A DNA stretch of 64,000 nt from Arenicellales bacterium (GTDB lineage: Bacteria > Pseudomonadota > Gammaproteobacteria > Arenicellales > JAJDZL01), in assembly GCA_965262855.1 (NCBI GenBank), contig OZ253563.1:546328-610327 (forward strand). Direction: 5' to 3'. The notes beneath the pieces are model-generated. The model saw nothing but the letters and a program-made list of their open reading frames with translations. It had not been told where the DNA came from and did no database searches. Within the stretch, counting starts at the first letter, position 1. Each line of letters begins with the position of its first letter. Shown piece after piece: positions 43,150 through 56,851 of this stretch. The position numbers and the translations under genes are program-made.

Positions 43150-44679
43150 ATGATTATCGATGAAATTCTAATGGGGAGTTTACAGTTTCTCTCTGCACTA
43201 TTCATTTTTGCAGTAGGTATGGGTGTTGCGGTTGTTACAGTAATTTTCATCATAGACGTAAGACAGACGCGCGATGCGGTCAGAAGAAATTATCCAGTTC
43301 TGGGAAGATTTCGTTATCTATTTTCAATGCTTGGCGAATTTTTTCGCCAGTATTTCTTCGCAATGGACCGTGAAGAAATGCCCTTCAATCGAGCTGAAAG
43401 GGATTGGATAGAACGCTCTTCAAAGAATGTGGACAACACCGTCGCGTTTGGTTCTACGCGAAGTTTGTCTCCTGTTGGCACGACGATTTTTGTGAACTGC
43501 CCGTTCCCCACTTTGACAGAACATGCGGTTGCAATGGTGCCGATGTTGATCGGACCTTACAGCAGAAATCCCTACAATGCTCCTTCATTTTTCAATATTT
43601 CCGGCATGAGCTATGGAGCGCTTTCGACTCCCGCAGTACGTGCGCTGTCGAAAGGCGCCAAATTGGCTGGCTGCTGGTACAACACTGGAGAAGGCGGGCT
43701 TTCAAGCCATCACCTTGAAGGGGGATGCGACATTGTGTTTCAGATCGGAACGGCAAAATATGGCGTTCGCGATAAGGAAGGAAATCTGGATGCGGACAAA
43801 CTCCGGGAAGCCGCTGCCCACGAACAAGTCAAGATGTTTGAGTTGAAACTCAGCCAAGGTGCTAAACCTGGCAAGGGCGGAATATTGCCGGCAGCTAAGG
43901 TCACTGAAGAAATCGCCGCAATTAGAGGCATACCGGCAGGCGAAGCGTCGATCTCTCCTAATCGTCATCCTGAAATCGACAATATTTCCGATCTTCTCGA
44001 CGTGATTGAGAAAATTCGTGATATTTCCGGCAAACCGGTCGGTTTTAAATCCGTTTTCGGCAATTTCGAATGGCTTGAAGAAATTTGTTTGGAAATTCAT
44101 GCGCGCGGTATTGAAAGCGCTCCCGATTTCATTACTGTCGATAGCGGTGATGGCGGCACGGGTGCGGCACCCATGCCATTAATGGACAATGTCGGTTTAC
44201 CCGTGCGCGAGTCGCTTCCCTTGGTATCTGACGTCCTGCACAAATATGGACTGCGCGAACGAATCAGGACAATTTCGTCGGGCAAGCTTGTCAACCCGTC
44301 AGAGGTTGCGTGGGCGATTGCTACTGGTGCCAATTTTGTGACATCAGCGCGAGGCTTCATGTTCGCGCTCGGTTGCATTCAATCACTCAAATGCAACAAG
44401 AATACCTGCCCAACAGGGGTCACGACACACAATCCAAGGCTTCAAAAAGGCCTGAACCCTGCTGACAAATCGGTAAAGGTAGCCAATTACTGCAAGAAAC
44501 TGATCCAGGAAGTTCAGATCATTTCCCATTCGTGTGGCGTCGTGCGGCCGCGTTTGATGAACAGGGGACACGTTCGAATTGTTCAAAGCGATGGAAAATC
44601 AACTCCGATGCATGTGCTTTATCCACACCCTGTTGTTCTTTCTGAATATACGGCAGTCGGTAGTGATCGTTCTATTTGA
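43150..44679 (+). CDS. FMN-binding glutamate synthase family protein (GltB domain 2-like, membrane-anchored)
   Basis: The 509-aa product has an N-terminal TM helix, then ...RNYPVLGRFRYLF..., ...ISGMSYGALS... and ...LKLSQGAKPGKGGILP... Confidence 0.8.
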   Translation: MIIDEILMGSLQFLSALFIFAVGMGVAVVTVIFIIDVRQTRDAVRRNYPVLGRFRYLFSMLGEFFRQYFFAMDREEMPFNRAERDWIERSSKNVDNTVAFGSTRSLSPVGTTIFVNCPFPTLTEHAVAMVPMLIGPYSRNPYNAPSFFNISGMSYGALSTPAVRALSKGAKLAGCWYNTGEGGLSSHHLEGGCDIVFQIGTAKYGVRDKEGNLDADKLREAAAHEQVKMFELKLSQGAKPGKGGILPAAKVTEEIAAIRGIPAGEASISPNRHPEIDNISDLLDVIEKIRDISGKPVGFKSVFGNFEWLEEICLEIHARGIESAPDFITVDSGDGGTGAAPMPLMDNVGLPVRESLPLVSDVLHKYGLRERIRTISSGKLVNPSEVAWAIATGANFVTSARGFMFALGCIQSLKCNKNTCPTGVTTHNPRLQKGLNPADKSVKVANYCKKLIQEVQIISHSCGVVRPRLMNRGHVRIVQSDGKSTPMHVLYPHPVVLSEYTAVGSDRSI

Positions 44680-44792: not shown

Positions 44793-46232
44793 TCAGCGGT
44801 TGCCTGATTTTGATTTCTTAGGCAGGTAAAGATCCGTAATCGTTCCTTCATACGTTTCAGCGGCAAATCCAATCGTTTCTGAAAGCGTCGGATGGGCGTG
44901 AATGGTCAGTGCAATATCTTCTGCATCAGAGCCCATTTCAATCGCCAATGCTGCTTCTGCGATTAGTTCTCCTGCGTTCGTACCTACAATCCCGGCGCCA
45001 ATCAATCTGTTGGTAGTCGGATCAAACAGAAGTTTGGTAGTTCCCTCTGGGCGGGACATCGACAGTGCCCTGCCGCTGGCGCGCCACGGAAAGACAGCAT
45101 TCTCAAAGGGTGTACCGGTTTTTTTGGCTTCTCTCTCGGTCAGTCCAACCCAGGCAATTTCAGGGTCAGTGTAGGCCACCGACGGTATGATGGAAGTGTC
45201 GAAGCCGGAATTCATTCCAGCAATGACTTTTGCTGCAACTTTGCCCTGATGGCTGGCTCGGTGCGCCAGCATGGGCTGTCCGGTAATATCGCCAATTGCA
45301 AAGATTCCTTCTACGTTTGTTCGCTGTTGTCGATCGACTGGAATGACGCCATTTTCATCAACTTCGATTCCAGCGGCAACGGCACCGATTGAATTTCCGT
45401 TTGCCGTTCGACCGACCGCGGTCAGTATCATATCGAAGCTGTCTTCAGTTCTTTTTCCATTGCTTTCAAATACAACCTTGAGGTTGTCCTTGTTGGCATC
45501 AACGGAAACGACGGCAGTCTTGAGCATGATTTGTTGGTAATTTTTCTTGATACGGGCAGTAAGAGGTTTTACGATATCTGCATCAGCTTCGACGATAAGG
45601 CTGTCCATGATTTCCACTACGGTAATCGAACACCCGAGCTCGTGATATACGGTTGCCAACTCAAGTCCGATGATTCCACCACCGATGATCAGGAGTCGTT
45701 CAGGAACTTTCTGCAGTGACAGAGCACCGGTTGAATCGACAATACGAGGATCGTCTGGCAAGAAAGGCAAAGAGGATGGGCGAGAGCCGGCGGCAATCAC
45801 AGCGTCTCGAAAAAAAACTTTTTTTACACTGTTTTCATCAACTACGTTAATGGATTCTGAACTGGAAAATTGACCGTATCCAGTAATGACTCTAACGCCT
45901 CTTTGTTTCGCTAGCGCGGCCAGGCCTCCTGTCAGTTGACCGACGACTTTGTCCACCCAACTACGAAGCTTCTGAGGATCAATGTCGGGATTCTCAAATG
46001 TGACTCCACAGTCTTTGATTTCACTCGCTTCGCAGATGACCTTTGCCACATGAAGCAAAGCTTTGGATGGTATACACCCGACGTTGAGGCAAACACCGCC
46101 AAGCTGCGGATAGCGCTCAATTAAAACCGTTTTTTTGCCAAGATCAGCCGCTCGAAACGCAGCGGTGTATCCGCCGGGACCGGCACCAAGAACCGCAACA
46201 TCGGCGTGAATATTCGAATCGTTGTCGTTCAA
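44793..46232 (-). CDS. lpdA: dihydrolipoyl dehydrogenase (E3)
   Basis: It has GAGPGGYTAAFRAADLG and the redox disulfide motif GGVCLNVGCIPSKALL. It lies directly downstream of aceF. The apparent start is TTG. Confidence 0.9.
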   Translation of the reverse strand: MNDNDSNIHADVAVLGAGPGGYTAAFRAADLGKKTVLIERYPQLGGVCLNVGCIPSKALLHVAKVICEASEIKDCGVTFENPDIDPQKLRSWVDKVVGQLTGGLAALAKQRGVRVITGYGQFSSSESINVVDENSVKKVFFRDAVIAAGSRPSSLPFLPDDPRIVDSTGALSLQKVPERLLIIGGGIIGLELATVYHELGCSITVVEIMDSLIVEADADIVKPLTARIKKNYQQIMLKTAVVSVDANKDNLKVVFESNGKRTEDSFDMILTAVGRTANGNSIGAVAAGIEVDENGVIPVDRQQRTNVEGIFAIGDITGQPMLAHRASHQGKVAAKVIAGMNSGFDTSIIPSVAYTDPEIAWVGLTEREAKKTGTPFENAVFPWRASGRALSMSRPEGTTKLLFDPTTNRLIGAGIVGTNAGELIAEAALAIEMGSDAEDIALTIHAHPTLSETIGFAAETYEGTITDLYLPKKSKSGNR

Positions 46233-46272
46233 GACGTTCAGGTTCGTTGATTAACTGTAGAAAAGGATGCGA

Positions 46273-47610
46273 CTACAACAGAATCCGTCTTGAATCGTAT
46301 AGCAGTTCGCAGACAAACTTTGTGAATCGTGCTGCTTCGGCACCGTCAATTACTCTGTGATCGTACGAAAGTGACAATGGCAGCATAGTCTTCCACTCCA
46401 TGCCGTCTTCGGCTGGCACTGCTATCTGATGATTCCTGCTAACTCCTAGAATCGCAACCTCCGGAGGATTGATGATTGGCGTAAAGAAACGCCCGCCAAT
46501 ACCACCAAGGCTTGAAATCGTGAAACAGCCGCCTTGAAAATCAGAAGGTGTCAGTTCTCCGTTTCGAGCTTTTGCGCCGAGCGCTTGCAGCATTCTCGCG
46601 ATGTCCAGCACACCTAAAGTCTGAATATCTCTGATTACTGGAACGACCAATCCGTTTGGTGTATCAACGGCAACACCAATATTAAAGTATTTCTTTAAGA
46701 TTAGGCTTTGGCCATCTGGAGATAAAGATGAATTGAAATTCGGATATTGCTGAAGGGCATTGATAATGGCTTTACAGATGAAAGCCAGAATCGTTACTCG
46801 AGTACCGGCAATTTTCTCCTCGGCATCAATCGCTTTACGAAACAGTTCAAGTTCGGTAGTGTTTGCTTCATCATGATGTGTGACGTGCGGAATATCTAGC
46901 CACGAACGGTGCAGACGATCTCCGGTGATTCGCTTGATTTTCGACAGTTTGAGAATTTCGGTTTCACCAAATTTAGAGAAATCGACCTCTGGAATAGGGG
47001 GTGGGCCAAATCTGTATCCGCTGTCTTGTGAAGCACCGTCCTGCATTCGTTGTTTGACTTGATTTTTGATATCATCCCGAGTGATTCGCCCTTTCGCGCC
47101 TGTCCCTCTGATTTGAGATAAATCAACTCCCAGTTCTCTTGCAAATCGTCGTACGCTCGGACTCGCGTGGGGAAGAGTGCCTTTCGATCGCTCGACAGGT
47201 GGTGGCAGGGTTGGAGGCGGAGGTGGTACGTAATAATCGTTCTGAGACTGTTTGTCATCTTCAACAGCCATATCCGTTTCTTCTGTAACAGGCGCTGTTG
47301 TGATTTCCTCAGTAGTCGCCTCTTCAACAGCCGGTTCAGGTTGTTCCGAAGTTTCTTCTACAGTTTCCCCAGATGCCGCGACACTCAACAGATGATCGCC
47401 TTCTGAAATCTTGTCACCTAAATTGACAACTAAATCTATGACTTTACCTGCGACTGGAGACGGTACATCCATCGTCGCCTTGTCGCTCTCTAAGGTCAGG
47501 ACTGAATCATCGACGGCAACTGTATCACCGACTGCAACATGCAATTCGATGACTTCTACATCTGTGAAGTCTCCGATGTCTGGCAACAGTACTTTGCTAG
47601 GTTCGCTCAT
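46273..47610 (-). CDS. aceF: pyruvate dehydrogenase E2, dihydrolipoyllysine acetyltransferase (single lipoyl domain)
   Basis: It has the lipoyl motif LESDKATMDVPS, an E3-binding region and the catalytic motif SLSYDHRVIDGA. Confidence 0.9.
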   Translation of the reverse strand: MSEPSKVLLPDIGDFTDVEVIELHVAVGDTVAVDDSVLTLESDKATMDVPSPVAGKVIDLVVNLGDKISEGDHLLSVAASGETVEETSEQPEPAVEEATTEEITTAPVTEETDMAVEDDKQSQNDYYVPPPPPTLPPPVERSKGTLPHASPSVRRFARELGVDLSQIRGTGAKGRITRDDIKNQVKQRMQDGASQDSGYRFGPPPIPEVDFSKFGETEILKLSKIKRITGDRLHRSWLDIPHVTHHDEANTTELELFRKAIDAEEKIAGTRVTILAFICKAIINALQQYPNFNSSLSPDGQSLILKKYFNIGVAVDTPNGLVVPVIRDIQTLGVLDIARMLQALGAKARNGELTPSDFQGGCFTISSLGGIGGRFFTPIINPPEVAILGVSRNHQIAVPAEDGMEWKTMLPLSLSYDHRVIDGAEAARFTKFVCELLYDSRRILL

Positions 47611-47712
47611 CGATATAGACTGTGAAAGTGATAATCAAATTACCTCCAAAGGGTAGTATCTTTAAAAATGTGAGAGATGTGACGGTTAAAGGGACTAATC
47701 CACTCGCTCAGT

Positions 47713-48600
47713 CTACATGGCTTCTTCCTGTTGAAGAGCAAAGATGGAAGTATACCCTCCTGACCAGTCGGGTGGTATCTGACACGGCCGCTCATCGTGA
47801 TGTGCCCAGCGAGCCGTTTGTCCCCTTACAATGGTTTGATAATATCTAGAGTCTGTGGGAACCGGGGTATAAGGCATTGCGTCCGCAGATGAATATGCAT
47901 TTAGTAGAAGAGGGCGCCCTATGGATGAACGGTTTGGCATTGACGAATGCAGCATTCTGCAGTTGTGGATCGTGAGAGACCCTGCCGGACCGCTAAGCTC
48001 CATAGCACGACTTGTATCGAGTTTACCAGCATCTTCGGCTGACAGGCATCCGGTCCATTGCCCGGAATCGTTGTACTGATCATAGAGTGGCTTCTTGTGG
48101 CTCTTGGGAAGCACAACAAGTGGTCCCTGTTCGTAATTGCACTCGTACAGATACAGGCCGACAGTCAGCGGACTGTAATTGGTATGCGGCCAGAATTGAA
48201 TGTCCTGATGCCATTTGACTTCTTCCCCGCCGTGCGCCCACTTAAAATTCAGTTTCGAGTGATGAAATTTGACATCTGGGCCGACCAGATCAGCCACAAT
48301 ATCTGTAATCAGCGAACTGGATGCATATTCCCAGTAGGCATCGTGATGGTCATTCGGACTGGTAAGCCTTCGCAGGCGTGGATCTTCCGGAGAATGGCTA
48401 TTTTCCAAGTCCCATATGCTATCCGAAATCGTAATTTCTCGGCTTCGTTCAATCATTTCATTCGTTGCATCGCGCAGTCGATTCAACCAGTTTTCCGGCA
48501 CCGCTCTCTCAACCAAAAGATAACCGTTGTCAAAATAGAAACGCCGTTGTTCGTCCGTCAGCGACAAAGGCGGATGTTGGAGAATTTGATTAATTTCCAT
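47713..48600 (-). CDS. phytanoyl-CoA dioxygenase (PhyH) family Fe(II)/2-oxoglutarate oxygenase
   Basis: The 295-aa product has an HxD facial-triad candidate in VKWHQDIQFW and a distal His in TIHNCRMLHSS. The substrate is not assignable. Confidence 0.75.
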   Translation of the reverse strand: MEINQILQHPPLSLTDEQRRFYFDNGYLLVERAVPENWLNRLRDATNEMIERSREITISDSIWDLENSHSPEDPRLRRLTSPNDHHDAYWEYASSSLITDIVADLVGPDVKFHHSKLNFKWAHGGEEVKWHQDIQFWPHTNYSPLTVGLYLYECNYEQGPLVVLPKSHKKPLYDQYNDSGQWTGCLSAEDAGKLDTSRAMELSGPAGSLTIHNCRMLHSSMPNRSSIGRPLLLNAYSSADAMPYTPVPTDSRYYQTIVRGQTARWAHHDERPCQIPPDWSGGYTSIFALQQEEAM

Positions 48601-48614
48601 TTTCTGTACCTCTA

Positions 48615-49937
48615 TCAGTTGAACCCCAGTAGTTTATCAGGCAGCCACAAAACGATTTGCGGAAATGCAATTACCACACACAAAGTGACAAGTTGTAACA
48701 GTATAAACGGAGTCATGCCTCGAAACATGTGTTGCAACGTAATTTCTGGCGGACTAATGCCTCTCAAGTAGAAAATCGCAGGTGCCATTGGCGGCGTAAG
48801 GTAGCTGGTTTGAATAATGATCAGGAACAACACGCAGAACCAAACCGGGTCGTAACCCATGTGTGTGATCACAGGGATGAATACGGGAATGAAAATCAGC
48901 AGGATTGAAATCCATTCCAAAACGAATCCGGCAAGAAAACTAATCGCCATAAATAACGCAAGAGTCGCCCAGTTGGGCAGGTTTGATTCTCGAATCAACT
49001 CCTCAACCAGAAAAACACCGCCTGATGCAATAAACACACCCGAAAACATGCTGCCGCCAAGCAGAATCAACATGATCATACAGGTTACTTTGAGAGACTT
49101 GATCAAAGCTTCATTCAGAACCGCAATAGAAAACCGTCGATAGAATATCGTCAGCAAAATCGATCCGAAAGCACCCATTCCAGCCGCTTCGGTCGGCGCT
49201 GCCCAACCGAACATAATCGAACCAAGAACCGCGAAAATCAGCAACAGCGGTGGAATCAGCGCACGGGCGGTGATGGAAAGCTTCTCCAGCAGCCTAGGAT
49301 CATCTGGTGAGGGAGGTATACGTGCGCCATCTGAGGGTCTCAGTGTGCATCGTACGATGATGTAAACAATGTAGAAGAATGCCATGAGTAAACCAGGAAA
49401 AACCATTCCGACGAAAAGGTCACCGACCGAAACATCGGCGACAGGTCCGAGCACCACAACCACAACAGAAGGGGGAATTATGGTGCCGAGAGAACCCCCG
49501 GCGCATATCGTTCCGGAAATCAGTCCTTTGTGATACGCATACTTCATCATGATAGGAATCGCGAGAAGCCCGACTACAGTCTCTGTGGCTCCGATAACGC
49601 CTGTTGAAGCCGCAAATATCACGCACATTACGATTGTTCCAACAGCCAATCCGCCTGGCAAGCGTCGAGTCCAGATATGCACCGCTTCGAACAGTCGTTC
49701 TGCAATACCTGATCTTTCCAGCATTGACCCCATGAACACGAACAATGGAACCGCAGCTAGAACGAAATTCGATGCAACAGCATCGACTTTTTCGGCGAAC
49801 TGAAAAATTACTGGAGTGCCAAACGTAATCAGACCAAAACCAAGTGCAACCCCCATCAATGAAAATGCAACTGGGAATCCGGCAAACAAAACCAGCAGGA
49901 TCGCCGGGAACATGGCTAGGGCAAGATACTCACCCAT
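48615..49937 (-). CDS. dctM: TRAP transporter large permease
   Basis: The 440-aa polytopic membrane protein overlaps the dctQ stop by 8 nt. Confidence 0.85.
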   Translation of the reverse strand: MGEYLALAMFPAILLVLFAGFPVAFSLMGVALGFGLITFGTPVIFQFAEKVDAVASNFVLAAVPLFVFMGSMLERSGIAERLFEAVHIWTRRLPGGLAVGTIVMCVIFAASTGVIGATETVVGLLAIPIMMKYAYHKGLISGTICAGGSLGTIIPPSVVVVVLGPVADVSVGDLFVGMVFPGLLMAFFYIVYIIVRCTLRPSDGARIPPSPDDPRLLEKLSITARALIPPLLLIFAVLGSIMFGWAAPTEAAGMGAFGSILLTIFYRRFSIAVLNEALIKSLKVTCMIMLILLGGSMFSGVFIASGGVFLVEELIRESNLPNWATLALFMAISFLAGFVLEWISILLIFIPVFIPVITHMGYDPVWFCVLFLIIIQTSYLTPPMAPAIFYLRGISPPEITLQHMFRGMTPFILLQLVTLCVVIAFPQIVLWLPDKLLGFN

Positions 49938-50490
49938 TGGAATTTACATTTGCGATATTCGTTGGGTTGAGCAGTGTGTGAACTGCTCGAATCAATTCAG
50001 CGACAGCCTGTATGGATAGGACCAGAAAACCAACGAAGAAAACCACACGAAAGGGCCAAATGACTGGATTCCATGCAGATTCCCCGGACAGTTGTCCAGA
50101 ATTGAACGCACCAAGAGCATAGTTGGCCAGTCGATAGGACAGCCAGAAACTTAGTGGCAGAAACAGAAATGTATAACCGAGTGTGTCGACCAGCGCCTGC
50201 AGTCTAGGGCTGAATCGAGAATATAGGACGTCAATTCGTATATGGGCCTTTTCCCGCAGTGCGAATGCTGATCCGAGCAAAAAATTGGCTCCGGTCATCA
50301 TATAGCCAATTTCATAAGCCCAAATGGTTGGTGCATTGAACAGGTAACGGGAAAAGACCTCGTAGATCGTTGCAACAATCAGGGGCAAGACGATCCATGC
50401 AGCAAGCAAGCCGACACTACCGCTGAATCGATCAGCAATGCGAAGCAGAGAGTGCATCAGTAAATTGAAGTGTCCCGCAAAAACGGGCAA
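49930..50490 (-). CDS. dctQ: TRAP transporter small permease
   Basis: The 186-aa product has four hydrophobic helices and lies between the binding-protein and DctM genes. Confidence 0.8.
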   Translation of the reverse strand: MPVFAGHFNLLMHSLLRIADRFSGSVGLLAAWIVLPLIVATIYEVFSRYLFNAPTIWAYEIGYMMTGANFLLGSAFALREKAHIRIDVLYSRFSPRLQALVDTLGYTFLFLPLSFWLSYRLANYALGAFNSGQLSGESAWNPVIWPFRVVFFVGFLVLSIQAVAELIRAVHTLLNPTNIANVNSNG

Positions 50491-50547
50491 CGAGCAGTTG
50501 CCGGGAAATACAAAAGAGTTCCCGGCAATGCTCTATTCAAGTTGAAT

Positions 50548-51615
50548 TTAATTTGCAGAAGCTACGTTTCGGTAACGGGCTGCGTCTTTCCAAAGTTCTT
50601 CATAGGCCAGCTGGCTACTGTATGCATTGTCGAACCAGGCGTTTTCAGCGCTTTGGGCTTTACCCCAAGCAATTGCTTGAGTTTTTACGCTAACTTGAAC
50701 GTCTTTGTCGAGTTCAATTATTTCGTTGCCCGCATCGCGGAAAAACTGCAGTGCTTTGGCATCTTCATGACCAATGCGCGTCCAGCTTTCAAAAGTCGTG
50801 ATTTTCGCTGCCAAGTCAACCAGTGCCTGGTCTTTTTCAGAGAGGGCGTTATACGCATCAACATTCACAACCAGTTCAAAGGGCGCAACTGGTTGATGTA
50901 CACCTGGAATCACCACATACTTGGCAATCTTGTGAAAACCGGGCGAGATATTCTCGTACAAGGTTCCCCATTCGGTTGCGTCAATCGTTCCTCGTTCAAG
51001 GGAGGAATAGACTTCCGCACCCGGCATGGTTACCGGTGCGGCTCCCATGCTCTGGGAGATTTCAAGCCATGCGCCTGCCGTTCGAACTTTCAAGCCTTTC
51101 AAGTCAGCCATGGTCTTTACAGCCTTGTTGGAGTGCAGGAACGCTTCAGCGGTACGGATGAACAGCGGCATAGACACCACGCCGAACTTCTCCATTCGAA
51201 AGTCGCGCCACATTTGCAGCCCGCCGCCTTCATATAACCAATGAAGCATTCTTTCGGAATCCATTGAGCCGGCAAAGCCGCCGAAGACTACGGTTGCTTT
51301 GTCTTTACCCCAGTCATATCCCATCCAAGTATGGCCTGCTTGAGCAATTCCGGTTGAAACAGTTTCTGATACATTCAGGGCTTTACCCAAAGTACCGCCA
51401 GGAAATACCTGAACTTCGATGCGCCCGTCGGTCAACTGATTGACTCTGTCGGCGAAGGCGTTTGCGCCGAGTGCCATAAGCGGTCCACCGCCCCAGGAAG
51501 TCGCCATTTTCCATTTGTGCTCCGCTTCTGCAAGCGTGACAGCACTTGTCAATGTCATACAGATTGCCAGCAAGCCGGCGGCGGTACGCGTTAAAAATTT
51601 ACTATACGATTTCAT
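50548..51615 (-). CDS. dctP: TRAP transporter substrate-binding protein (DctP family)
   Basis: The 355-aa product has a signal peptide, then ...HKWKMATSWGGG..., and LKGLKVRTAG, which contains the Arg position used for carboxylate binding in characterised DctP-type proteins. Confidence 0.85.
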   Translation of the reverse strand: MKSYSKFLTRTAAGLLAICMTLTSAVTLAEAEHKWKMATSWGGGPLMALGANAFADRVNQLTDGRIEVQVFPGGTLGKALNVSETVSTGIAQAGHTWMGYDWGKDKATVVFGGFAGSMDSERMLHWLYEGGGLQMWRDFRMEKFGVVSMPLFIRTAEAFLHSNKAVKTMADLKGLKVRTAGAWLEISQSMGAAPVTMPGAEVYSSLERGTIDATEWGTLYENISPGFHKIAKYVVIPGVHQPVAPFELVVNVDAYNALSEKDQALVDLAAKITTFESWTRIGHEDAKALQFFRDAGNEIIELDKDVQVSVKTQAIAWGKAQSAENAWFDNAYSSQLAYEELWKDAARYRNVASAN

Positions 51616-51674
51616 AAGTCATTTACCCTCATTAGTTAAAGTTATTTGAATAGTTTAAGCCATTGTTAAATCAG

Positions 51675-51995
51675 TTAGCAGCTCTGATTGTCGTAATTCA
51701 CATCCTCCAATCTTGACAATGCTTCATCGATGTCTACACCGGTCAGTTCCCACTCATTGTCCAGTTCGGCAATGATTACCTTCATAAAGTAGCCGGAGAG
51801 TTTCAATGCTTTTTTGTCTTCGCCCAAGTGGTCGGCCAGAATTGCCAAAGCAAGTTGCTGTGGAGAATTTCCTTCATAGGTCCATTCAAAACCCAAGTCA
51901 GTAAATTGCTTGATGTCGTATCGTTCGTCCAGAGGTTGTCCATCTACTGTAACTTTAATCCCGTCGATCGTGCGGTCACCAGAATATGTTTTCAT
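51675..51995 (-). CDS. hypothetical 106-aa cytoplasmic protein
   Basis: The ORF is co-oriented and tightly spaced inside the block. The sequence MKTYSGDRTIDGIKVTVDGQPLDERYDIKQFTDLGFEWTYEGNSPQQLALAILADHLGED... resembles a conserved domain of unknown function (possibly DUF6166, from memory only). Confidence 0.5.
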   Translation of the reverse strand: MKTYSGDRTIDGIKVTVDGQPLDERYDIKQFTDLGFEWTYEGNSPQQLALAILADHLGEDKKALKLSGYFMKVIIAELDNEWELTGVDIDEALSRLEDVNYDNQSC

Positions 51996-52066
51996 TGAAC
52001 TTTAACAGTCTGCCAATCTGAAAATATTTATTAGCGCTTAGACTCGCTTGACTCAGTGGATTATGT

Positions 52067-52933
52067 CTATATCTGTTTGCGTTGCTCTACCAAGCTGAGA
52101 AATTTTTCATATTCTTCCTGCGGTGTTGGGTAGCTATGATCTTCATCGGGAAATACACCTTGTTTGACTTCGTCGACGTACTGCTTGATTCCATCTACTG
52201 CCACTTCCGTCAGAGTTGCATAGCGCTTGGTAAATTTTGGCTTGAAATCGGTAAATACACCTAGCAGGTCGTAGCAGAGCAGTATCTGTCCGTCGGTGCC
52301 CGAGCCCGCACCGATTCCTATGGTAGGAATTTCAAGCTGTTGAGAAATAACCTCCGCAATTTTTGCTGGAACTGCTTCAAATTCCAACATGAAGCAACCG
52401 GCATCCTGGATGGCAAATGCATCTTCAAGTATCTTCATAGCACTCTCAGCAGTTCTGCCTTGAATTCTGAATCCACCAAACATGGCAACAGTGTGAGGGG
52501 TCAGTCCTATATGTGAAGCAGTCGGTATGCCTGCATCGACCAAAGCCTTTAGGATATGTGCCTGACTCTTGCCTCCTTGTGGCTTGACGGCATCACAACC
52601 AGCGTCCTGCATGAAACGAGTTGCGTTCACCAGTGCCCGGTCTGGCGTGTTGTAACTCTGATAAGGCATGCAACCCAGAACGAAAGTGTTCGGAGCGCCC
52701 CGCCTTACCGCCAGCGAGTGCATGATCATCATTTCCATGCTCGCGGGAATGGTGTTGGGATGTCCATGTGCGATCATAGCGAGACTATCGCCCACAACGG
52801 CAACGTCCACTCCTGCCATTTCAGCCCACTGTGCGGAAGTGTAATCCGGAACCGACATATAAACCATCTTTTCACCAGTGGATTTGGAATTCCGGATTTC
52901 ACTGATTGTTCTCTTGCTCACCTCAGAAGTCAT
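52067..52933 (-). CDS. panB: 3-methyl-2-oxobutanoate hydroxymethyltransferase
   Basis: The sequence ...VAVVGDSLAMIAHGHPNTIPASMEMMIMHSLAVRRGAPNTFVLG... aligns with E. coli PanB as I recall it (VGDSLGM..GH.ST.PV....H..AV.RGAPN). The product is 288 aa. Confidence 0.85.
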   Translation of the reverse strand: MTSEVSKRTISEIRNSKSTGEKMVYMSVPDYTSAQWAEMAGVDVAVVGDSLAMIAHGHPNTIPASMEMMIMHSLAVRRGAPNTFVLGCMPYQSYNTPDRALVNATRFMQDAGCDAVKPQGGKSQAHILKALVDAGIPTASHIGLTPHTVAMFGGFRIQGRTAESAMKILEDAFAIQDAGCFMLEFEAVPAKIAEVISQQLEIPTIGIGAGSGTDGQILLCYDLLGVFTDFKPKFTKRYATLTEVAVDGIKQYVDEVKQGVFPDEDHSYPTPQEEYEKFLSLVEQRKQI

Positions 52934-52954
52934 TGGATTCCGACGAGAAAAGGG

Positions 52955-53134
52955 TTAACTCTTTTTCTTGCCGCCTGCTTCGGGAAATACCCACATGGCA
53001 ATGACCATGAAAATGGACAATCCTGCTCCTACATATGCCAATTGAGAATCACCAAGAGTGGATTCAAAATAGAAAAAGCCACCACCCGCAAGCAGCGTAA
53101 GGGCGGAAACCATCAATTTAATGTGGACAGGCAT
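52955..53134 (-). CDS. 59-aa two-helix membrane micro-protein (below the ORF-track cutoff)
   Basis: My codon-by-codon translation is MPVHIKLMVSALTLLAGGGFFYFESTLGDSQLAYVGAGLSIFMVIAMWVFPEAGGKKKS*. It starts 10 nt after the hydroxylase stop and ends 21 nt before the panB start, so it fills the gap. I saw no clear Shine-Dalgarno sequence. Confidence 0.4.
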   Translation of the reverse strand: MPVHIKLMVSALTLLAGGGFFYFESTLGDSQLAYVGAGLSIFMVIAMWVFPEAGGKKKS

Positions 53135-53144
53135 ATTGCAGAAT

Positions 53145-53918
53145 TCAGGCTTCTAGCCCCACTGGTGAAGAAGACACAACATCCGGGCGTTTAGGTGTGC
53201 CGCGCAAGTTCGTTTTCAGGTGCTTTTCGCTATAGCCATTGAAAAGGTGCCCAAGCAGGCCTCGGTTCAGATCAGAGGTGCCAAACATCCAGTCTGCAAT
53301 TGGAAATGTCAGGTTCATGTTCACTTCCATCATCAGACGTGAGTTATGGTGCGCTGTGTGATGTCGTCTAATGGTATTTACCAGCGGCATGTTGCGTACG
53401 AACCAGTTTTCATCAACATGGCAACAAAAATGCATGAATTCATAAATGATGTAAATTCCGGTTGTGGAGCACATGAACAGCCACGCGACATTCGGTGTCA
53501 GCACATAGTAAAGGACGACGGCTCCTGGAATTGAAATTAGAATGAATACTACGAGTGCATAAGGGGGAAAGAAAGTGACTCGCCAATCCTTGTGATCCCG
53601 GAATCGCATCTCGTTGTCAGTAAAGAACTGGTGATGCTGCAGAGTATGACGTTTGTAAATTGCGATTAGCCCGGAAAATCTCTGAGGTCGATGCATAACT
53701 TTCTGATGCAAGTACCATTCAAAAATGTTGCATGCAAGCAGAAAACCCGGTACGGTTGCCCATTCCCACCATCGAACGTTTTCCAGATGTTGGATATATA
53801 GCCCAATTGCCGTCAAACCAATTGCATAAATGATAAATACATGCATCGGTCCGTTGTACCATCCCGCAACCCGGCTTCTATATTCGCGTCTGTAATTCCC
53901 CTGTTTTTCGGTCATCAT
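53145..53918 (-). CDS. fatty acid hydroxylase/sterol desaturase superfamily membrane di-iron enzyme
   Basis: It has the histidine boxes HQKVMH, HTLQHH and HHTAHH and several TM helices. The product is 257 aa. Confidence 0.8.
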   Translation of the reverse strand: MMTEKQGNYRREYRSRVAGWYNGPMHVFIIYAIGLTAIGLYIQHLENVRWWEWATVPGFLLACNIFEWYLHQKVMHRPQRFSGLIAIYKRHTLQHHQFFTDNEMRFRDHKDWRVTFFPPYALVVFILISIPGAVVLYYVLTPNVAWLFMCSTTGIYIIYEFMHFCCHVDENWFVRNMPLVNTIRRHHTAHHNSRLMMEVNMNLTFPIADWMFGTSDLNRGLLGHLFNGYSEKHLKTNLRGTPKRPDVVSSSPVGLEA

Positions 53919-54184
53919 GATTGATATCCTCCAATTCTCAAAAATTTACAGTTCAGAATTCTTGATTTCTTTTTGGCAGCCTACTTGAATGCACTCAGGA
54001 ATTTTGCTGAATATTATTCCAATAAGCTATTGATGTTTATTTTATTTTAACATCACTGAAACAAGAATTGTGCTGAATTGTAGATGGACTTGGAGCTTTG
54101 ACAGAACCCGATTCAAGATCAATTCAACAACTATTTGTCGTCACATCTGAATACTGTTTTTACAGCTTCCTGGAATATCCGGAT

Positions 54185-56851
54185 TCACGAAACTGAGGGA
54201 TCGGGTTTAGATGGATCAATACCGAATTTCTTGAACGCCTTTGTAACTTCCGTAACCTTGATGCTGCCGTCATCTGCAAGCGCTTTCAAGGCAGTTGCGC
54301 AAATGTGATAGCGATTTACCTCAAAGAAAGTGCGCAAGTTCGCGCGGGTGTCTGAGCGGCCGAAACCATCTGTACCGAGCACGGAGTAACGACGCGGGAC
54401 AAATCCTCGAATCTGGTCCGGGTACATCTGCATGTAGTCAGTGGCAGCGATCACAGGACCTGCTGTGTCTGTGAGACACTGTTCGACATAACTGGTGCGA
54501 GCTTTTTTGTTGGGATTGAGCCGATTCCAGCGTTCTGCCGACTGGCCGTCCCGAGCAAGCTCATTGAAGCTCGTCACACTCCATATATCGGCTGCGACTG
54601 AATAATCAGACTCCAGAATTTCAGCAGCAGCAATTGCTTCCCGCAATATCGTGCCGCTGCCGAGAAGCTGCACTCGATTAGAGTGATCACTTGTTGAACG
54701 ATTCAGCAAATACATGCCCTTGATGATGCCTTCTTCAGCCTTATCTGGCATCGGCGGATGGGCATAGTTTTCGTTCATGCACGTAATGTAGTAATAGATT
54801 GCTTCCTGATCTTGATACATGCGTCGAAGCCCGTCATGAATAATCACTACCAGCTCGTAAACGTATGCGGGGTCATAAGAGACGCAAGTTGGAATCGTTG
54901 CGGCAAGAAGGTGGCTGTGGCCGTCCTGATGCTGCAGACCTTCACCAGCCAATGTGGTCCTGCCTGCAGTTCCTCCGATTAAGAACCCACGTGTCTTGAT
55001 ATCCGCTGCAGCCCATGCAAGATCGCCGACGCGCTGAAAGCCGAACATGGAGTAGAAAATATAGAACGGAATCATGTTTACGTCGTGATTGCTCGCTGCG
55101 GTGCCGGCGGCTATCCAAGAGCACATCGCTCCAGCTTCGTTAATTCCTTCCTGAAGCACTTGACCTTCCTTGGACTCACGATAGAACATAAGTTGATCTG
55201 CATCTTCTGGTTTGTACAGCTGTCCTAGTGGCGAGTAAATTCCCAACTGACGAAACATGCCTTCCATTCCAAAAGTCCTGGATTCGTCAGGTACAACGGG
55301 TACGATGTTCTTGCCGATGTTTTTGTCCCGAAGCAAGCTCGTCAAGATTCGTACAAAACCCATGGTTGTAGATATTTCCCGGTTTCCAGTTCCCTTAAGT
55401 TGCGTGTCGAAAATGCTGATATTCGGAATTTCGAGTCGCTTTCTTGCGCGACGCCGAATTGGCAGTGACCCGCCGAGTTGTTTGCGCTGTTTGAGCATGT
55501 ATTGAATTTCAGGACTGTCGTCGGGCGGTCGATAGAAGGGTGCTGAAACGAGTTCTTCGTCGGTAAGTGGAATTCTGAACCGATCACGAAAGGAAATCAG
55601 AGAATTTTCTCCAACTTTTTTCTGCTGATGGGTAATGTTCTGGCCTTCGCCTGCTTCTCCCATTCCGTAACCTTTTACAGTTTTAGCAAGAATTACGGTT
55701 GGCTGTCCAGAGTGCTTGACCGCGGCTGCATAAGCTGCAAATACCTTGTGAGGGTCATGTCCACCGCGATTCAGTCGCCAGATATCCTCATCGGTCATAT
55801 TGGAGACCATAGCGCGAAGTTCATCGTATTTGCCGAAAAAGTGTTCTCGCGTATATGCGCCGCCTTTTGCCTTGAATGCCTGGTATTCTCCGTCTACCGC
55901 TTCTTCCATTCTTCGACGCAGTAAACCCTTGGTGTCTCGCATCAGTAGTGGATCCCAATAAGACCCCCATATCAGTTTGATGACGTTCCATCCGGCGCCC
56001 CGAAACTCTCCTTCAAGCTCCTGAATAATTTTCCCGTTCCCGCGAACCGGACCATCAAGTCGTTGTAGATTGCAGTTCACGACAAAGATGAGATTGTCCA
56101 GCTTTTCTCGTCCAGCAAGCGATAGTGCCCCCATGGACTCTGGCTCGTCCATTTCACCGTCGCCGACGAATGTCCACACTTTTCGATTGGCCGTGTCGCA
56201 AAGCCCTCGATTATGTAGATACTTCATAAACCGAGCCTGATAAATTGCCATGATCGGACCGAGCCCCATGGAGACCGTCGGGAACTGCCAAAAGTCTGGC
56301 TTCAGTCGCGGATGAGGGTAAGAGGGTAAGCCATCGCCTGTGGCTTCTTGCCTGAAATTGATCAGATCCTCTTCGCTCAGCCGTCCTTCCAAATAAGCTC
56401 TGGCATAGATACCGGGAGCGGAATGTCCCTGAATGAAGATTAGATCTCCGCCATGGGTTTCGCTCGGGGCGTGCCAGAAATGATTGAAGCCTACATCGTA
56501 AAGGGTGGCAGATGAGGCAAAACTCGCAATATGGCCGCCGAGCTCAGTAGATGTCTGATTCGCACGCACCACAATGGCAAGTGCATTCCAACGAATCAGC
56601 GAGCGGACACGCCACTCGATTGCGTGGTCCCCGCTGCTACGCTCCTCCTGAGCTGCGCTGATTGTGTTGACGTAGGCAGTGGTTGGCCGATGTGGGATGT
56701 GAACACCGGATCGCCTGGCACTGTCAATCAACTGTTCAATCAGAAAATGAGCACGTTCATGCCCTTCGCGGTCAATTACACTCGAGAGTGAATCCAGCCA
56801 TTCCTGAGTTTCGTAGGGGTCAATATCTGTCGGAAGATTTTTGTCGGACAT
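54185..56851 (-). CDS. aceE: pyruvate dehydrogenase E1 component (homodimeric type)
   Basis: The 888-aa product begins MSDKNLPTDIDPYETQEWLDSL and has a ThDP-binding region ...GDGEMDEPES... Confidence 0.95.
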   Translation of the reverse strand: MSDKNLPTDIDPYETQEWLDSLSSVIDREGHERAHFLIEQLIDSARRSGVHIPHRPTTAYVNTISAAQEERSSGDHAIEWRVRSLIRWNALAIVVRANQTSTELGGHIASFASSATLYDVGFNHFWHAPSETHGGDLIFIQGHSAPGIYARAYLEGRLSEEDLINFRQEATGDGLPSYPHPRLKPDFWQFPTVSMGLGPIMAIYQARFMKYLHNRGLCDTANRKVWTFVGDGEMDEPESMGALSLAGREKLDNLIFVVNCNLQRLDGPVRGNGKIIQELEGEFRGAGWNVIKLIWGSYWDPLLMRDTKGLLRRRMEEAVDGEYQAFKAKGGAYTREHFFGKYDELRAMVSNMTDEDIWRLNRGGHDPHKVFAAYAAAVKHSGQPTVILAKTVKGYGMGEAGEGQNITHQQKKVGENSLISFRDRFRIPLTDEELVSAPFYRPPDDSPEIQYMLKQRKQLGGSLPIRRRARKRLEIPNISIFDTQLKGTGNREISTTMGFVRILTSLLRDKNIGKNIVPVVPDESRTFGMEGMFRQLGIYSPLGQLYKPEDADQLMFYRESKEGQVLQEGINEAGAMCSWIAAGTAASNHDVNMIPFYIFYSMFGFQRVGDLAWAAADIKTRGFLIGGTAGRTTLAGEGLQHQDGHSHLLAATIPTCVSYDPAYVYELVVIIHDGLRRMYQDQEAIYYYITCMNENYAHPPMPDKAEEGIIKGMYLLNRSTSDHSNRVQLLGSGTILREAIAAAEILESDYSVAADIWSVTSFNELARDGQSAERWNRLNPNKKARTSYVEQCLTDTAGPVIAATDYMQMYPDQIRGFVPRRYSVLGTDGFGRSDTRANLRTFFEVNRYHICATALKALADDGSIKVTEVTKAFKKFGIDPSKPDPSVS

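What the first reader, a model, noticed from the sequence alone, without database searches (positions are those of the whole stretch)
47611..54184. The pyruvate dehydrogenase cluster is split by a 6.6-kb co-directional block (TRAP transporter, PhyH oxygenase, PanB, di-iron hydroxylase and two small unknown proteins)
aceE (54185-56851) and aceF-lpdA (44793-47610) are normally contiguous. Here eight same-strand genes lie between them: a fatty-acid-hydroxylase-type membrane enzyme, a 59-aa membrane micro-ORF, panB, a 106-aa orphan, dctP, dctQ, dctM and a PhyH-family dioxygenase.
- Gaps inside the block are 10-71 bp. There is a 266-bp gap after aceE and a 102-bp gap before aceF.
- Spot GC counts within the block were 40% and 48%, bracketing the ~45% of housekeeping lines, and I see no mobility genes or flanking repeats. 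It does not look like a recent mobile insertion.
- A possible unifying theme is 2-oxoacid handling. DctP-type TRAP systems include 2-oxoacid importers, PanB consumes 2-oxoisovalerate, and PDH consumes pyruvate. The binding protein keeps the carboxylate-binding Arg context (LKVRTAG).
- The roles of the two oxygenases and the small proteins are unknown.
- This is the best candidate in the window for an undescribed functional unit, but functional coupling is my inference.
Basis: inference. Interest (0 to 1): 0.55.

Follow-up and report, generated by a model that had tools for sequence, protein, structure and literature searches.

The report
Uncharacterised transporter-oxygenase operon splitting PDH genes
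The eight genes that interrupt the pyruvate dehydrogenase cluster of this marine Arenicellales bacterium are a widely shared but uncharacterised gene set (a transporter, two oxygenases and an altered PanB enzyme) that lies elsewhere in other bacteria, so its position inside the PDH cluster reflects lineage history, not shared function.

Summary
aceE (54185-56851) and aceF-lpdA (44793-47610) are separated by eight co-directional genes: FA_hydroxylase, a 59-aa membrane protein, PanB, DUF6166, DctP, DctQ, DctM and PhyH.

The block is a real functional unit. The same families co-occur, in shuffled order, in Alpha-, Beta- and Gammaproteobacteria, usually with a GntR/FCD regulator.
- 54 of 80 loci found through PhyH carry at least one partner gene.
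- 20 of 80 carry the full set.

The link to PDH is not general.
- None of 59 loci outside Arenicellales has aceE or aceF nearby.
- Within Arenicellales the block also occurs elsewhere.
- The aceE|aceF junction holds PhyH alone, a decayed block, or unrelated cargo, depending on the species.

New points:
- The "PanB" is a tight paralog clade, 81-90% identical across classes. Two near-universal active-site carboxylates are replaced in every copy (Asp84 to Cys, Glu114 to Gln).
- The binding protein keeps the TakP-type arginine and cation site used for alpha-oxo or alpha-hydroxy acids.
- DUF6166 has no structural relative in the PDB.
- I found no literature on this gene set.

Best reading: an uptake-plus-oxidation module for a small alpha-substituted carboxylate. 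The substrate is unknown.

The parts
53145..53918 (-). Membrane di-iron hydroxylase of the FA_hydroxylase superfamily (257 aa)
   Evidence: Pfam PF04116, E 3e-8. Histidine boxes H71x4H, H91x3HH, H163x3H and HH186x2HH, plus hydrophobic segments. No PDB relative. Co-occurs with PhyH in 44 of 80 loci.
52955..53134 (-). 59-aa two-segment membrane protein (m59), a constant neighbour of the hydroxylase
   Evidence: No Pfam or NCBIfam hit. tblastn finds it directly beside FA_hydroxylase in 31 loci, with the conserved motif AMWxFPE(T/A)G.
52067..52933 (-). PanB* : a PanB-family paralog (288 aa) with an altered active-site pentad, D-C-K-Q-E
   Evidence: PF02548 E 5e-95 and TIGR00222 287 bits. About 45% identical to E. 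coli PanB 1M3U. Asp84 to Cys and Glu114 to Gln in all 23 block-type copies. 128 of 138 complete sequences among the 150 nearest 50%-cluster representatives plus the window copy have D-D-K-E-E. Copies are 81-90% identical across classes.
51675..51995 (-). DUF6166 protein (106 aa), function unknown
   Evidence: PF19663 E 8e-29. 1069 homologs, all unnamed. AF2 model with pLDDT 81.6. No Foldseek or HMM relative in the PDB. Paired with PhyH in 42 of 80 loci.
50548..51615 (-). TRAP solute-binding protein DctP, TakP / lactate-binding subgroup (355 aa, with a hydrophobic N-terminus that looks like a signal peptide)
   Evidence: PF03480. Best PDB matches are TTHA0766 (deposited as a lactate-binding protein), TakP and a keto-acid-binding protein. 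R178, E157, E215, W216 and Q241 match TakP Arg177, Gln156, Glu214, Trp215 and Glu240 (PMC1839085). Signal peptide: direct reading of the sequence, not a prediction tool.
49930..50490 (-). TRAP small membrane subunit DctQ
   Evidence: PF04290 E 9e-24. The public gene call uses an internal start, giving 175 aa.
48615..49937 (-). TRAP large permease DctM
   Evidence: PF06808 and TIGR00786 305 bits. Overlaps dctQ by 8 bp.
47713..48600 (-). Fe(II)/2-oxoglutarate dioxygenase of the PhyH family (295 aa)
   Evidence: PF05721 E 1.5e-27. H131, D133, H218 and R229 are invariant. Nearest structures are proline hydroxylase H11, GriE, human PHYH and EctD. More than 5000 homologs, 60-70% identical across phyla.
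54185..56851 (-). aceE (PDH E1), upstream flank of the block
   Evidence: TIGR00759 1465 bits.
44793..47610 (-). aceF (one lipoyl domain) and lpdA, downstream flank
   Evidence: aceF domains: Pfam. lpdA: ORF coordinates and the Pyr_redox Pfam domains of the identical gene call in L001. PhyH-aceF adjacency in 13 of 21 Arenicellales loci.

Best explanation
The block is a self-contained, anciently acquired accessory module that exists independently of PDH.

Most likely mechanism:
1. The TakP-type TRAP system (DctPQM) imports a small carboxylate that carries an alpha-oxo, alpha-hydroxy or alpha-nitrogen group, bound through Arg178 and a co-bound cation.
2. The PhyH-family Fe/2OG dioxygenase and the membrane di-iron hydroxylase, with its 59-aa partner, hydroxylate the compound using O2.
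3. PanB*, a PanB-family aldolase-type enzyme with a remodelled metal site, makes or breaks the C-C bond next to a 2-oxo group, probably moving a C1 unit to or from tetrahydrofolate. The product would be an ordinary 2-oxoacid.
4. DUF6166 is an obligate small partner of unknown role.

In most lineages a GntR/FCD regulator controls the set. In Arenicellales the module landed in, or was kept at, a permissive junction between aceE and aceF, and there it has since been trimmed, lost or joined by other cargo.

Shown here: gene identities, conservation of the set, independence from PDH, the PanB* substitutions and the binding-site residues of the binding protein.
Inferred: catabolic direction, order of steps, folate involvement and substrate class.
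For: Conservation of the set, among 80 genome loci retrieved through PhyH:
- 54 carry at least one partner gene, 38 carry at least two of FAH, PanB* and DUF6166, and 20 carry the full set.
- Carriers include Arenicellales, other Gammaproteobacteria (including Marinobacter), Rhodospirillales, Hyphomicrobiales, Azospirillum and Burkholderiales.
- At least six different gene orders are seen.
- A GntR/FCD regulator lies in or beside the set in about 30 loci.

Independence from PDH:
- 0 of 59 non-Arenicellales loci have aceE or aceF.
- L023 and L024 hold the intact block elsewhere.
- Genomes whose PDH locus holds only PhyH keep FAH-PanB*-DUF6166 at another site.
- L007 has a truncated DctP and lacks four of the genes.
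- L088 and L022 have other genes at the junction.
- In the PhyH tree the Arenicellales are monophyletic. The full block at non-PDH sites is basal, and the sister gammaproteobacteria share the same gene order.

Chemistry:
- The binding protein keeps the TakP ligand and cation residues (PMC1839085).
- PhyH keeps the HxD...H...R set. Its nearest structures are small-molecule hydroxylases acting on amino acids or zwitterions.
- FAH has the full histidine boxes.
- PanB* keeps D45, K112 and E181 but has C84 and Q114 in every copy.
- In five or six Rhodospirillaceae loci a corrinoid protein, MtaA/CmuA-type methyltransferases, a Pterin_bind enzyme and DUF1638 are inserted in the set. This fits a C1-to-folate theme.
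Against: - No substrate, transcript or activity data exist.
- The window's block has no dehydrogenase, CoA ligase or regulator, so the pathway is incomplete as written.
- No electron donor for the di-iron enzyme is encoded.
- The TRAP genes are missing from several carriers, so uptake is not an obligate part of the set.
- PhyH is often solo, or sits with other gene sets: APH kinase plus enolase, or DHDPS/DAO/Pro_racemase/FMN-demethylase. It may therefore serve more than one pathway.
- PhyH lies beside aceF in 13 of 21 Arenicellales loci. Pure chance placement does not explain why it stays there.
- The roles of Asp84 and Glu114 in canonical PanB rest on my recollection of the 1M3U and 1OY0 structure papers. 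The papers I could read confirm only the active-site Mg2+ and the metal dependence (PMC7770189, PMC13488298).
Confidence: 0.6

Rival explanations
1. The block is functionally coupled to PDH. The TRAP system imports pyruvate or other 2-oxoacids, the enzymes convert branched or hydroxylated 2-oxoacids to pyruvate, and aceE-aceF-lpdA then oxidise it. All of it would be expressed as one aceE-to-lpdA unit.
For: - All genes are co-directional with short gaps, and no convincing terminator is found.
- TakP-type binding proteins bind pyruvate and other alpha-keto acids (PMC1839085).
- PhyH sits directly upstream of aceF in 13 of 21 Arenicellales loci.
Against: - The linkage is absent from all 59 non-Arenicellales loci, and from two Arenicellales genomes that hold the intact block.
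- The block is decaying in a 95%-identical relative.
- The same junction holds NERD, TauE and a xanthine/uracil-type permease, or GNAT and enoyl-CoA hydratase, in other species.
- The transporter tracks PhyH, FAH and PanB*, not PDH.
Confidence: 0.12
2. The set is biosynthetic rather than catabolic. PanB* and the two hydroxylases would build or modify a small hydroxy-acid or a lipid-linked product, such as a pantoate-like unit or a hydroxylated membrane lipid, from an imported precursor.
For: - PanB is a biosynthetic family.
- FAH and its 59-aa partner are membrane proteins of a lipid-modifying superfamily.
- The window's block has no downstream catabolic enzymes.
Against: - A high-affinity importer plus a GntR/FCD regulator is the usual signature of a catabolic operon.
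- The accessory genes are catabolic in type: Fe-ADH, ICL-like lyase, hydrolase and demethylase systems.
- No ligase, synthetase or exporter is present.
Confidence: 0.15
3. There is no unit. An ordinary housekeeping panB and unrelated genes happen to lie between aceE and aceF.
For: - PanB* passes the NCBIfam equivalog cutoff.
- Block composition is host-like.
Against: - The same families co-occur across classes in shuffled order.
- PanB* forms one tight 50%-identity cluster with a unique C84/Q114 signature.
- m59 and DUF6166 are constant companions.
Confidence: 0.03

Closest known systems
TakP (Rhodobacter sphaeroides) / TTHA0766 TRAP transporters for alpha-keto acids and lactate
   Same: - A complete DctP, DctQ and DctM set.
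- The binding protein is most similar to this subgroup (E 1e-34 to 1e-39).
- The Arg salt bridge and the cation-binding positions are kept: E157, E215, W216, Q241 (PMC1839085).
   Different: - The relationship is distant (E 1e-34 to 1e-39).
- The Gln156 and Glu240 pair is swapped to Glu and Gln.
- The ligand is unknown.
- The transporter is embedded in an oxygenase and PanB* gene set, unlike takP.
Ketopantoate hydroxymethyltransferase PanB (E. coli 1M3U, M. tuberculosis 1OY0)
   Same: - Same fold family, full-length match, about 45% identity.
- Scores above the TIGR00222 cutoff.
- D45/S46, K112, E181 and the HxGLTP motif are kept.
   Different: - Asp84 to Cys and Glu114 to Gln in every block-type copy. 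128 of 138 complete sequences (nearest family representatives plus the window copy) keep Asp and Glu.
- 81-90% identity across classes, against about 36-52% to other PanBs.
- The genomic partners are oxygenases and a transporter, not panC, panD or panE.
PhyH-family small-molecule hydroxylases (trans-3/4-proline hydroxylase H11, GriE leucine 5-hydroxylase, EctD, human PHYH)
   Same: - Same fold.
- Same HxD...H iron triad and 2OG-binding Arg.
   Different: - 15-25% identity to these structures.
- Scores far below the EctD equivalog cutoff (46 against 336 bits).
- The substrate is unknown.
E. coli-type pdhR-aceE-aceF-lpd operon
   Same: aceE, aceF and lpdA are in the same order and orientation.
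   Different: - aceE and aceF are separated by 6.6 kb here.
- No pdhR-like regulator was identified next to aceE; uvrA lies directly upstream.
- The junction content varies across Arenicellales.
Corrinoid methyltransferase systems that deliver methyl groups to folate (CmuAB, Mtg/Mta type)
   Same: In five or six Rhodospirillaceae versions of the module, a corrinoid protein, MtaA/CmuA-family methyltransferases and a Pterin_bind enzyme are inserted between PanB* and DUF6166.
   Different: - Absent from the window.
- All scores are below the equivalog cutoffs.
- Their link to the module's substrate is inferred.

Membership tests
PanB / ketopantoate hydroxymethyltransferase (EC 2.1.2.11) | Full-length match to PF02548 and TIGR00222 above the curated cutoff | tested here: met
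   PF02548 318 bits. TIGR00222 287 bits against a cutoff of 207.55.
PanB / ketopantoate hydroxymethyltransferase (EC 2.1.2.11) | Conserved active-site pentad Asp45-Asp84-Lys112-Glu114-Glu181 (E. coli numbering) | tested here: not met
   The window protein and all 23 block-type copies have D-C-K-Q-E. 128 of 138 complete sequences among the nearest representatives plus the window copy have D-D-K-E-E.
PanB / ketopantoate hydroxymethyltransferase (EC 2.1.2.11) | Catalyses 2-oxoisovalerate + CH2-THF -> ketopantoate, and serves pantothenate synthesis (sole panB, or linked to panC, panD or panE) | not testable with these tools
   No panC, panD or panE and no second panB in the 64-kb window. Whole genomes could not be searched.
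Fe(II)/2-oxoglutarate dioxygenase, PhyH family | PF05721 match, with the HxD...H iron triad and the Arg that binds the 2OG C5 carboxylate | tested here: met
   PF05721 E 1.5e-27. H131, D133, H218 and R229 are invariant in 27 homologs. Foldseek probability 1.0 to PhyH-family structures.
Ectoine hydroxylase EctD | Score above the TIGR02408 equivalog cutoff | tested here: not met
   46 bits against a cutoff of 336.5.
TRAP transporter, TakP-like alpha-keto / alpha-hydroxy acid subgroup | All three subunits, DctP, DctQ and DctM, encoded together | tested here: met
   PF03480, PF04290 and PF06808 in consecutive genes.
TRAP transporter, TakP-like alpha-keto / alpha-hydroxy acid subgroup | Carboxylate-binding Arg177 and cation ligands (Gln156, Glu214, Trp215 O, Glu240) | tested here: met
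   R178, E157, E215, W216 and Q241 by alignment offset. The Gln and Glu pair is swapped (residues from PMC1839085).
TRAP transporter, TakP-like alpha-keto / alpha-hydroxy acid subgroup | Binds an alpha-keto acid or lactate | not testable with these tools
   Needs ligand-binding assays.
Fatty acid hydroxylase superfamily (membrane di-iron oxygenases) | PF04116 match, histidine boxes and membrane segments | tested here: met
   PF04116 34.6 bits against a cutoff of 31. HX4H, HX3HH, HX3H and HHX2HH boxes, plus hydrophobic segments.
Contiguous aceE-aceF-lpd PDH operon | aceE directly followed by aceF | tested here: not met
   A 6574-bp, eight-gene interruption here. In 12 of 21 related loci both aceE and aceF lie within the fetched flanks, always with PhyH, alone or with other genes, between them.
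Mobile element / genomic island | Integrase or transposase, flanking repeats, tRNA target or atypical composition | tested here: not met
   No such genes or repeats, and composition equals the host. One distant copy, L085, is flanked by several transposases.

The most novel reading that the evidence does not exclude
The module encodes an undescribed O2- and folate-linked pathway. A Cys84/Gln114 PanB variant, a new activity in the PEP-mutase/isocitrate-lyase superfamily, would work with a 2OG dioxygenase, a membrane di-iron hydroxylase with its 59-aa subunit, and DUF6166. Together they would hydroxylate a small branched or methylated alpha-substituted acid, such as an osmolyte or a component of recalcitrant marine dissolved organic matter, and remove C1 units from it, yielding ordinary 2-oxoacids.
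Probability: 0.3. Interest if true: 0.7.

Novelty: new variant of a known kind. Interest (0 to 1): 0.5.

Why it matters
- It defines a widespread gene set with no assigned function. PhyH has more than 5000 homologs and DUF6166 more than 1000, from marine, sponge, soil and freshwater bacteria.
- It flags a PanB look-alike that the NCBIfam equivalog cutoffs, which NCBI uses to name proteins, would label as the pantothenate enzyme even though two near-universal active-site residues are replaced. That would mis-score vitamin B5 prototrophy in metabolic reconstructions of these bacteria.
- Cultured Azospirillum and Marinobacter strains carry PhyH orthologs, and single Azospirillum formosense and Marinobacter loci carry related but PanB*-less versions of the set. 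Much of the module is therefore testable in culture, while PanB* itself would first need expression from a metagenomic sequence.
- The PDH split itself is a lineage curiosity. It shows that the aceE|aceF junction tolerates cargo throughout Arenicellales.

Tried and rejected
- **Homarine or picolinate-type catabolism.** The published homABCDER operon uses different enzyme families.
- **Phosphonate metabolism.** This was suggested by a PEP_mutase-family gene and an Fe-ADH in the Azospirillum locus and by weak PhnY and PhnR hits. The PEP_mutase-family protein lacks the EDKxxxxxNS mutase motif (the motif is from my own knowledge), and all hits fall far below their cutoffs.
- **Regulatory RNA or riboswitch in the gaps.** No Rfam match.
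- **Promoter and terminator scans.** At or below chance.
- **Mobile-element origin.** No repeats and no compositional signal.
- **Fold of DUF6166.** A confident model but no PDB neighbour.
- **PDB relatives of FAH.** None.
- **Literature on DUF6166 or on the gene combination.** Nothing found.
- **Published confirmation of the roles of PanB Asp84 and Glu114.** The structure papers are not in the library. Only metal dependence is confirmed.
- **Identity of the GntR/FCD regulator.** Only weak, non-diagnostic hits.

Full report
**1. Observation**

The minus strand of window 44793-56851 reads as follows:
- aceE (54185-56851)
- a 257-aa FA_hydroxylase protein (53145-53918)
- a 59-aa ORF (52955-53134)
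- PanB (52067-52933)
- a 106-aa ORF (51675-51995)
- DctP (50548-51615)
- DctQ (49930-50490)
- DctM (48615-49937)
- PhyH (47713-48600)
- aceF (46273-47610)
- lpdA (44793-46232)

They add that the 106-aa "orphan" is Pfam DUF6166 (E 8e-29).

The gaps are as reported: 266 bp after aceE, 102 bp before aceF, and 10-71 bp inside the block, with dctQ and dctM overlapping by 8 bp.

Block GC (0.472) equals window GC (0.471), and the block's tetranucleotide usage lies within the window's own spread. There are no flanking repeats of note, no tRNA nearby and no mobility genes.

**2. Source and relatives**

The window is identical to an ENA metagenome contig. Its closest genomes are Arenicellales MAGs, with PhyH 94-97% identical.

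I scanned one genome per species with the PhyH protein, which returned 80 loci with 10-kb flanks. I then mapped all block and PDH proteins onto them with tblastn.

**3. The block is a conserved unit**

Of the 80 loci:

| Feature near PhyH | Loci |
|---|---|
| At least one partner gene | 54 |
| At least two of FAH, PanB, DUF6166 | 38 |
| The TRAP genes | 35 |
| The complete set | 20 |

Many of the remaining contigs are short. Carriers include Arenicellales, other Gammaproteobacteria (among them a Marinobacter), Rhodospirillales and Rhodospirillaceae, Hyphomicrobiales, Azospirillum formosense, and Burkholderiales including Bordetella.

Gene order differs between lineages:
- FAH-m59-PanB-(GntR)-DUF6166-DctPQM-PhyH in gammaproteobacteria.
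- PanB-GntR-...-DUF6166-DctPQM-PhyH-FAH-m59 in many Rhodospirillaceae.
- Several further orders elsewhere.

Repeated clustering in shuffled order across classes is strong evidence for functional coupling.

A GntR/FCD regulator, absent from the window, accompanies the set in about 30 loci. The 59-aa ORF is found directly beside FAH in 31 loci, with two hydrophobic segments and a conserved AMWxFPE(T/A)G motif. It is therefore a real gene.

**4. The PDH position is lineage-specific, and the junction is variable**

None of the 59 non-Arenicellales loci has aceE or aceF within the fetched flanks. Thirteen of the 21 Arenicellales loci have aceF next to PhyH. Within Arenicellales the arrangements are:

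| Arrangement | Loci |
|---|---|
| aceE - full block - aceF | Only the window's close clade (L005, L006, L008) |
| aceE - truncated DctP (187 aa) - DctQM - PhyH - aceF | L007, 95% identical; the block is decaying |
| aceE - PhyH - aceF, nothing else between | Six species; two of these genomes keep FAH-PanB-DUF6166 at another locus without a TRAP system |
| aceE - NERD - TauE - permease - PhyH - aceF | L088 |
| aceE - GNAT - enoyl-CoA hydratase - FAH - m59 - PanB - DUF6166 - PhyH - aceF | L022 |
| Intact block at an unrelated site | L023, L024 |
| DUF6166-PhyH pairs elsewhere | Six loci |

A neighbour-joining tree of PhyH makes the Arenicellales copies monophyletic. The non-PDH full blocks are basal, and other gammaproteobacteria with the same gene order are sister to the clade (no bootstrap).

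The simplest history is an ancestral full module, placement at the aceE|aceF junction early in the order, and later trimming and cargo turnover at that site. PhyH's persistence next to aceF remains unexplained, and I record it as such.

Promoter and terminator scans are at chance and no Rfam element is present. Transcript structure therefore cannot be decided here.

**5. The "PanB" is not a standard PanB**

It passes the TIGR00222 equivalog cutoff and is about 45% identical to E. coli PanB.

In all 23 block-type copies, the E. coli ADLPF motif (Asp84) reads GCMPY, and KIEGG (Glu114) reads KPQGG. Asp45/Ser46, Lys112 and Glu181 are retained.

In a search of 1.84 billion cluster representatives, the block type collapses to a single full-length 50%-identity cluster. 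There is then a gap to a 52% relative (an Ala84/Gln114 type), followed by ordinary PanBs at 36-47%. Of the 138 complete sequences in that alignment (the nearest representatives plus the window protein and the E. coli reference), 128 have D-D-K-E-E. Only the block type has D-C-K-Q-E.

Block-type copies are 81-90% identical between Alpha-, Beta- and Gammaproteobacteria. That is more conserved than any other protein of the set.

PanB is a divalent-metal enzyme with Mg2+ in the active site (PMC7770189, PMC13488298). That Asp84 and Glu114 belong to the metal site is my recollection of the 1M3U and 1OY0 structure papers, and I could not verify it in the library. Whatever their exact role, replacing two near-universal carboxylates by Cys and Gln marks a distinct subfamily, which I call PanB*. 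Assigning ketopantoate synthesis to it is unsafe.

**6. Other components**

*Binding protein.* The best PDB matches are Thermus TTHA0766 (deposited as a lactate-binding protein), several Protein Structure Initiative TRAP binding proteins, TakP, and a "ketoacid-binding protein". TakP binds pyruvate through Arg177 and Tyr100, together with a Na+ ion held by Gln156, Glu214, the Trp215 carbonyl and Glu240 (PMC1839085). The window protein has R178, Y100, E157, E215, W216 and Q241 at the corresponding positions. The arginine-plus-cation site for alpha-oxo or alpha-hydroxy carboxylates is therefore retained, with a Gln/Glu swap.

*PhyH.* It has the invariant H131-x-D133, H218 and R229. Its nearest structures are trans-3/4-proline hydroxylase H11, leucine 5-hydroxylase GriE, human PHYH and EctD, at 15-25% identity. 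It is far below the EctD equivalog cutoff.

*FAH.* It has the full set of histidine boxes and membrane segments but no solved relative.

*DUF6166.* It has 1069 homologs, none of them named. It gives a confident AF2 model (pLDDT 81.6) with no Foldseek or profile match in the PDB. No Cys or His is invariant, so it is unlikely to be a redox partner.

**7. Accessory genes elsewhere give hints but no answer**

- In five or six Rhodospirillaceae loci, a corrinoid protein, MtaA/CmuA-type methyltransferases, a Pterin_bind enzyme and DUF1638 are inserted between PanB* and DUF6166. This is a methyl-to-folate system. With PanB* belonging to a folate-dependent family, it suggests a C1/folate theme.
- Azospirillum and Marinobacter versions carry an Fe-ADH. 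Azospirillum also has an ICL-like lyase, which lacks the PEP-mutase EDKx5NS motif, and Marinobacter an alpha/beta-hydrolase.
- An APH-family kinase plus an enolase paralog sits beside PhyH in eight loci.
- In four Rhodospirillaceae loci, a 67-70% identical PhyH sits with a second PhyH, a DHDPS-family enzyme, a D-amino-acid-oxidase-type enzyme and an FMN demethylase-like protein. A CDO-like cupin is present in three of them and a proline-racemase-family protein in three. One locus has FAH-m59 embedded in the set.

These contexts fit small hydroxy, oxo, amino or imino acids that are hydroxylated and then cleaved. They do not fix the compound.

**8. Explanation**

The best-supported reading is a discrete accessory module. 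It would import a small alpha-substituted carboxylate through the TRAP system. PhyH, and FAH with its m59 partner, would then hydroxylate it using O2. PanB* would process the neighbouring C-C bond, probably exchanging a C1 unit with folate, to give a common 2-oxoacid.
- The gene identities, the conservation of the set, its independence from PDH and the active-site features are shown.
- The direction, the step order and the substrate are inferred.

My confidence by part:

| Claim | Confidence |
|---|---|
| Conserved module independent of PDH | about 0.9 |
| Catabolic uptake and oxidation of an alpha-substituted carboxylate | about 0.55 |
| Any specific chemistry | 0.3 or less |

The rival that the block feeds PDH keeps some weight (0.12), because PhyH and aceF stay adjacent and TakP-type proteins bind pyruvate.

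**9. Comparison, novelty and score**

Every component except DUF6166 and m59 belongs to a known family. The combination, the PanB* subfamily and the DUF6166 and m59 partners are not described in any paper I could find. Sources that name the FAH, DctP or PhyH proteins give only generic labels; the window's own PanB* cluster carries no name.

I rate it a new variant of a known kind, namely a TRAP-linked catabolic-type operon.
- Interest is 0.5. The PDH split is a lineage curiosity.
- The module and PanB* are a solid lead, and related PanB*-less versions can be tested in cultured Azospirillum and Marinobacter.

Noticed in passing
window 52067-52933 (and L004-L085 copies): The PanB paralog has Cys in place of Asp84 and Gln in place of Glu114 in every copy, yet it scores above the NCBIfam PanB equivalog cutoff. 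Annotation pipelines will therefore call it the pantothenate enzyme.
   Followed up: yes
L007 7490-8053: In a 95%-identical Arenicellales relative, DctP is truncated to its C-terminal 187 aa, and FAH, m59, PanB and DUF6166 are missing. The block is being lost there.
   Followed up: yes
L088 2714-10001; L022 5730-7615; L021 2722-4467: In other Arenicellales the aceE|aceF junction carries unrelated cargo upstream of PhyH: NERD, TauE and a Xan_ur_permease, or GNAT and enoyl-CoA hydratase.
   Followed up: yes
window 43150-44679 (+ strand): A 509-aa Glu_synthase-domain gene lies between lpdA and serS only in the window's close clade (L001, L005, L006, L008). In the other PDH loci, lpdA is followed directly by serS. 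This is a second lineage-specific insertion next door.
   Followed up: partly
L089 / L090 8107-10315: Genomes whose PDH locus holds only PhyH keep FAH-PanB-DUF6166 elsewhere. There it sits next to a zinc ADH, an SBP_bac_5/Opp-type ABC system and a Peptidase_S15 gene, without a TRAP system.
   Followed up: partly
L086 10001-17577; L025, L029, L032: A 67-70% identical PhyH sits with a second PhyH, DHDPS, DAO and an FMN/Pyr_redox demethylase-like protein, plus a CDO-like cupin and Pro_racemase in three of the four loci each. The layout resembles hydroxyproline or N-methyl-proline catabolism. L029 has FAH-m59 embedded in the set.
   Followed up: partly
L038, L044, L045, L047, L052, L059, L070, L081: An APH-family kinase and a full-length enolase paralog (TIGR01060, 479 bits), sometimes with an ICL-like lyase, lie next to PhyH in alpha- and betaproteobacteria.
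   Followed up: partly
L085 733-20906: One copy of the module is surrounded by several transposase genes (DDE_Tnp_1, IS110, IS1595, rve). This suggests the set can be mobilised in some genomes.
   Followed up: no
window 46273-47610: aceF is short (445 aa), has a single lipoyl domain, and scores below the TIGR01348 long-form cutoff (509 against 552 bits).
   Followed up: no
L053 265-1518 and 6719-8086: One alphaproteobacterial locus has two non-canonical PanB homologs side by side. One is the block type (C84/Q114) and the other is a 49% relative with A84/Q114.
   Followed up: partly
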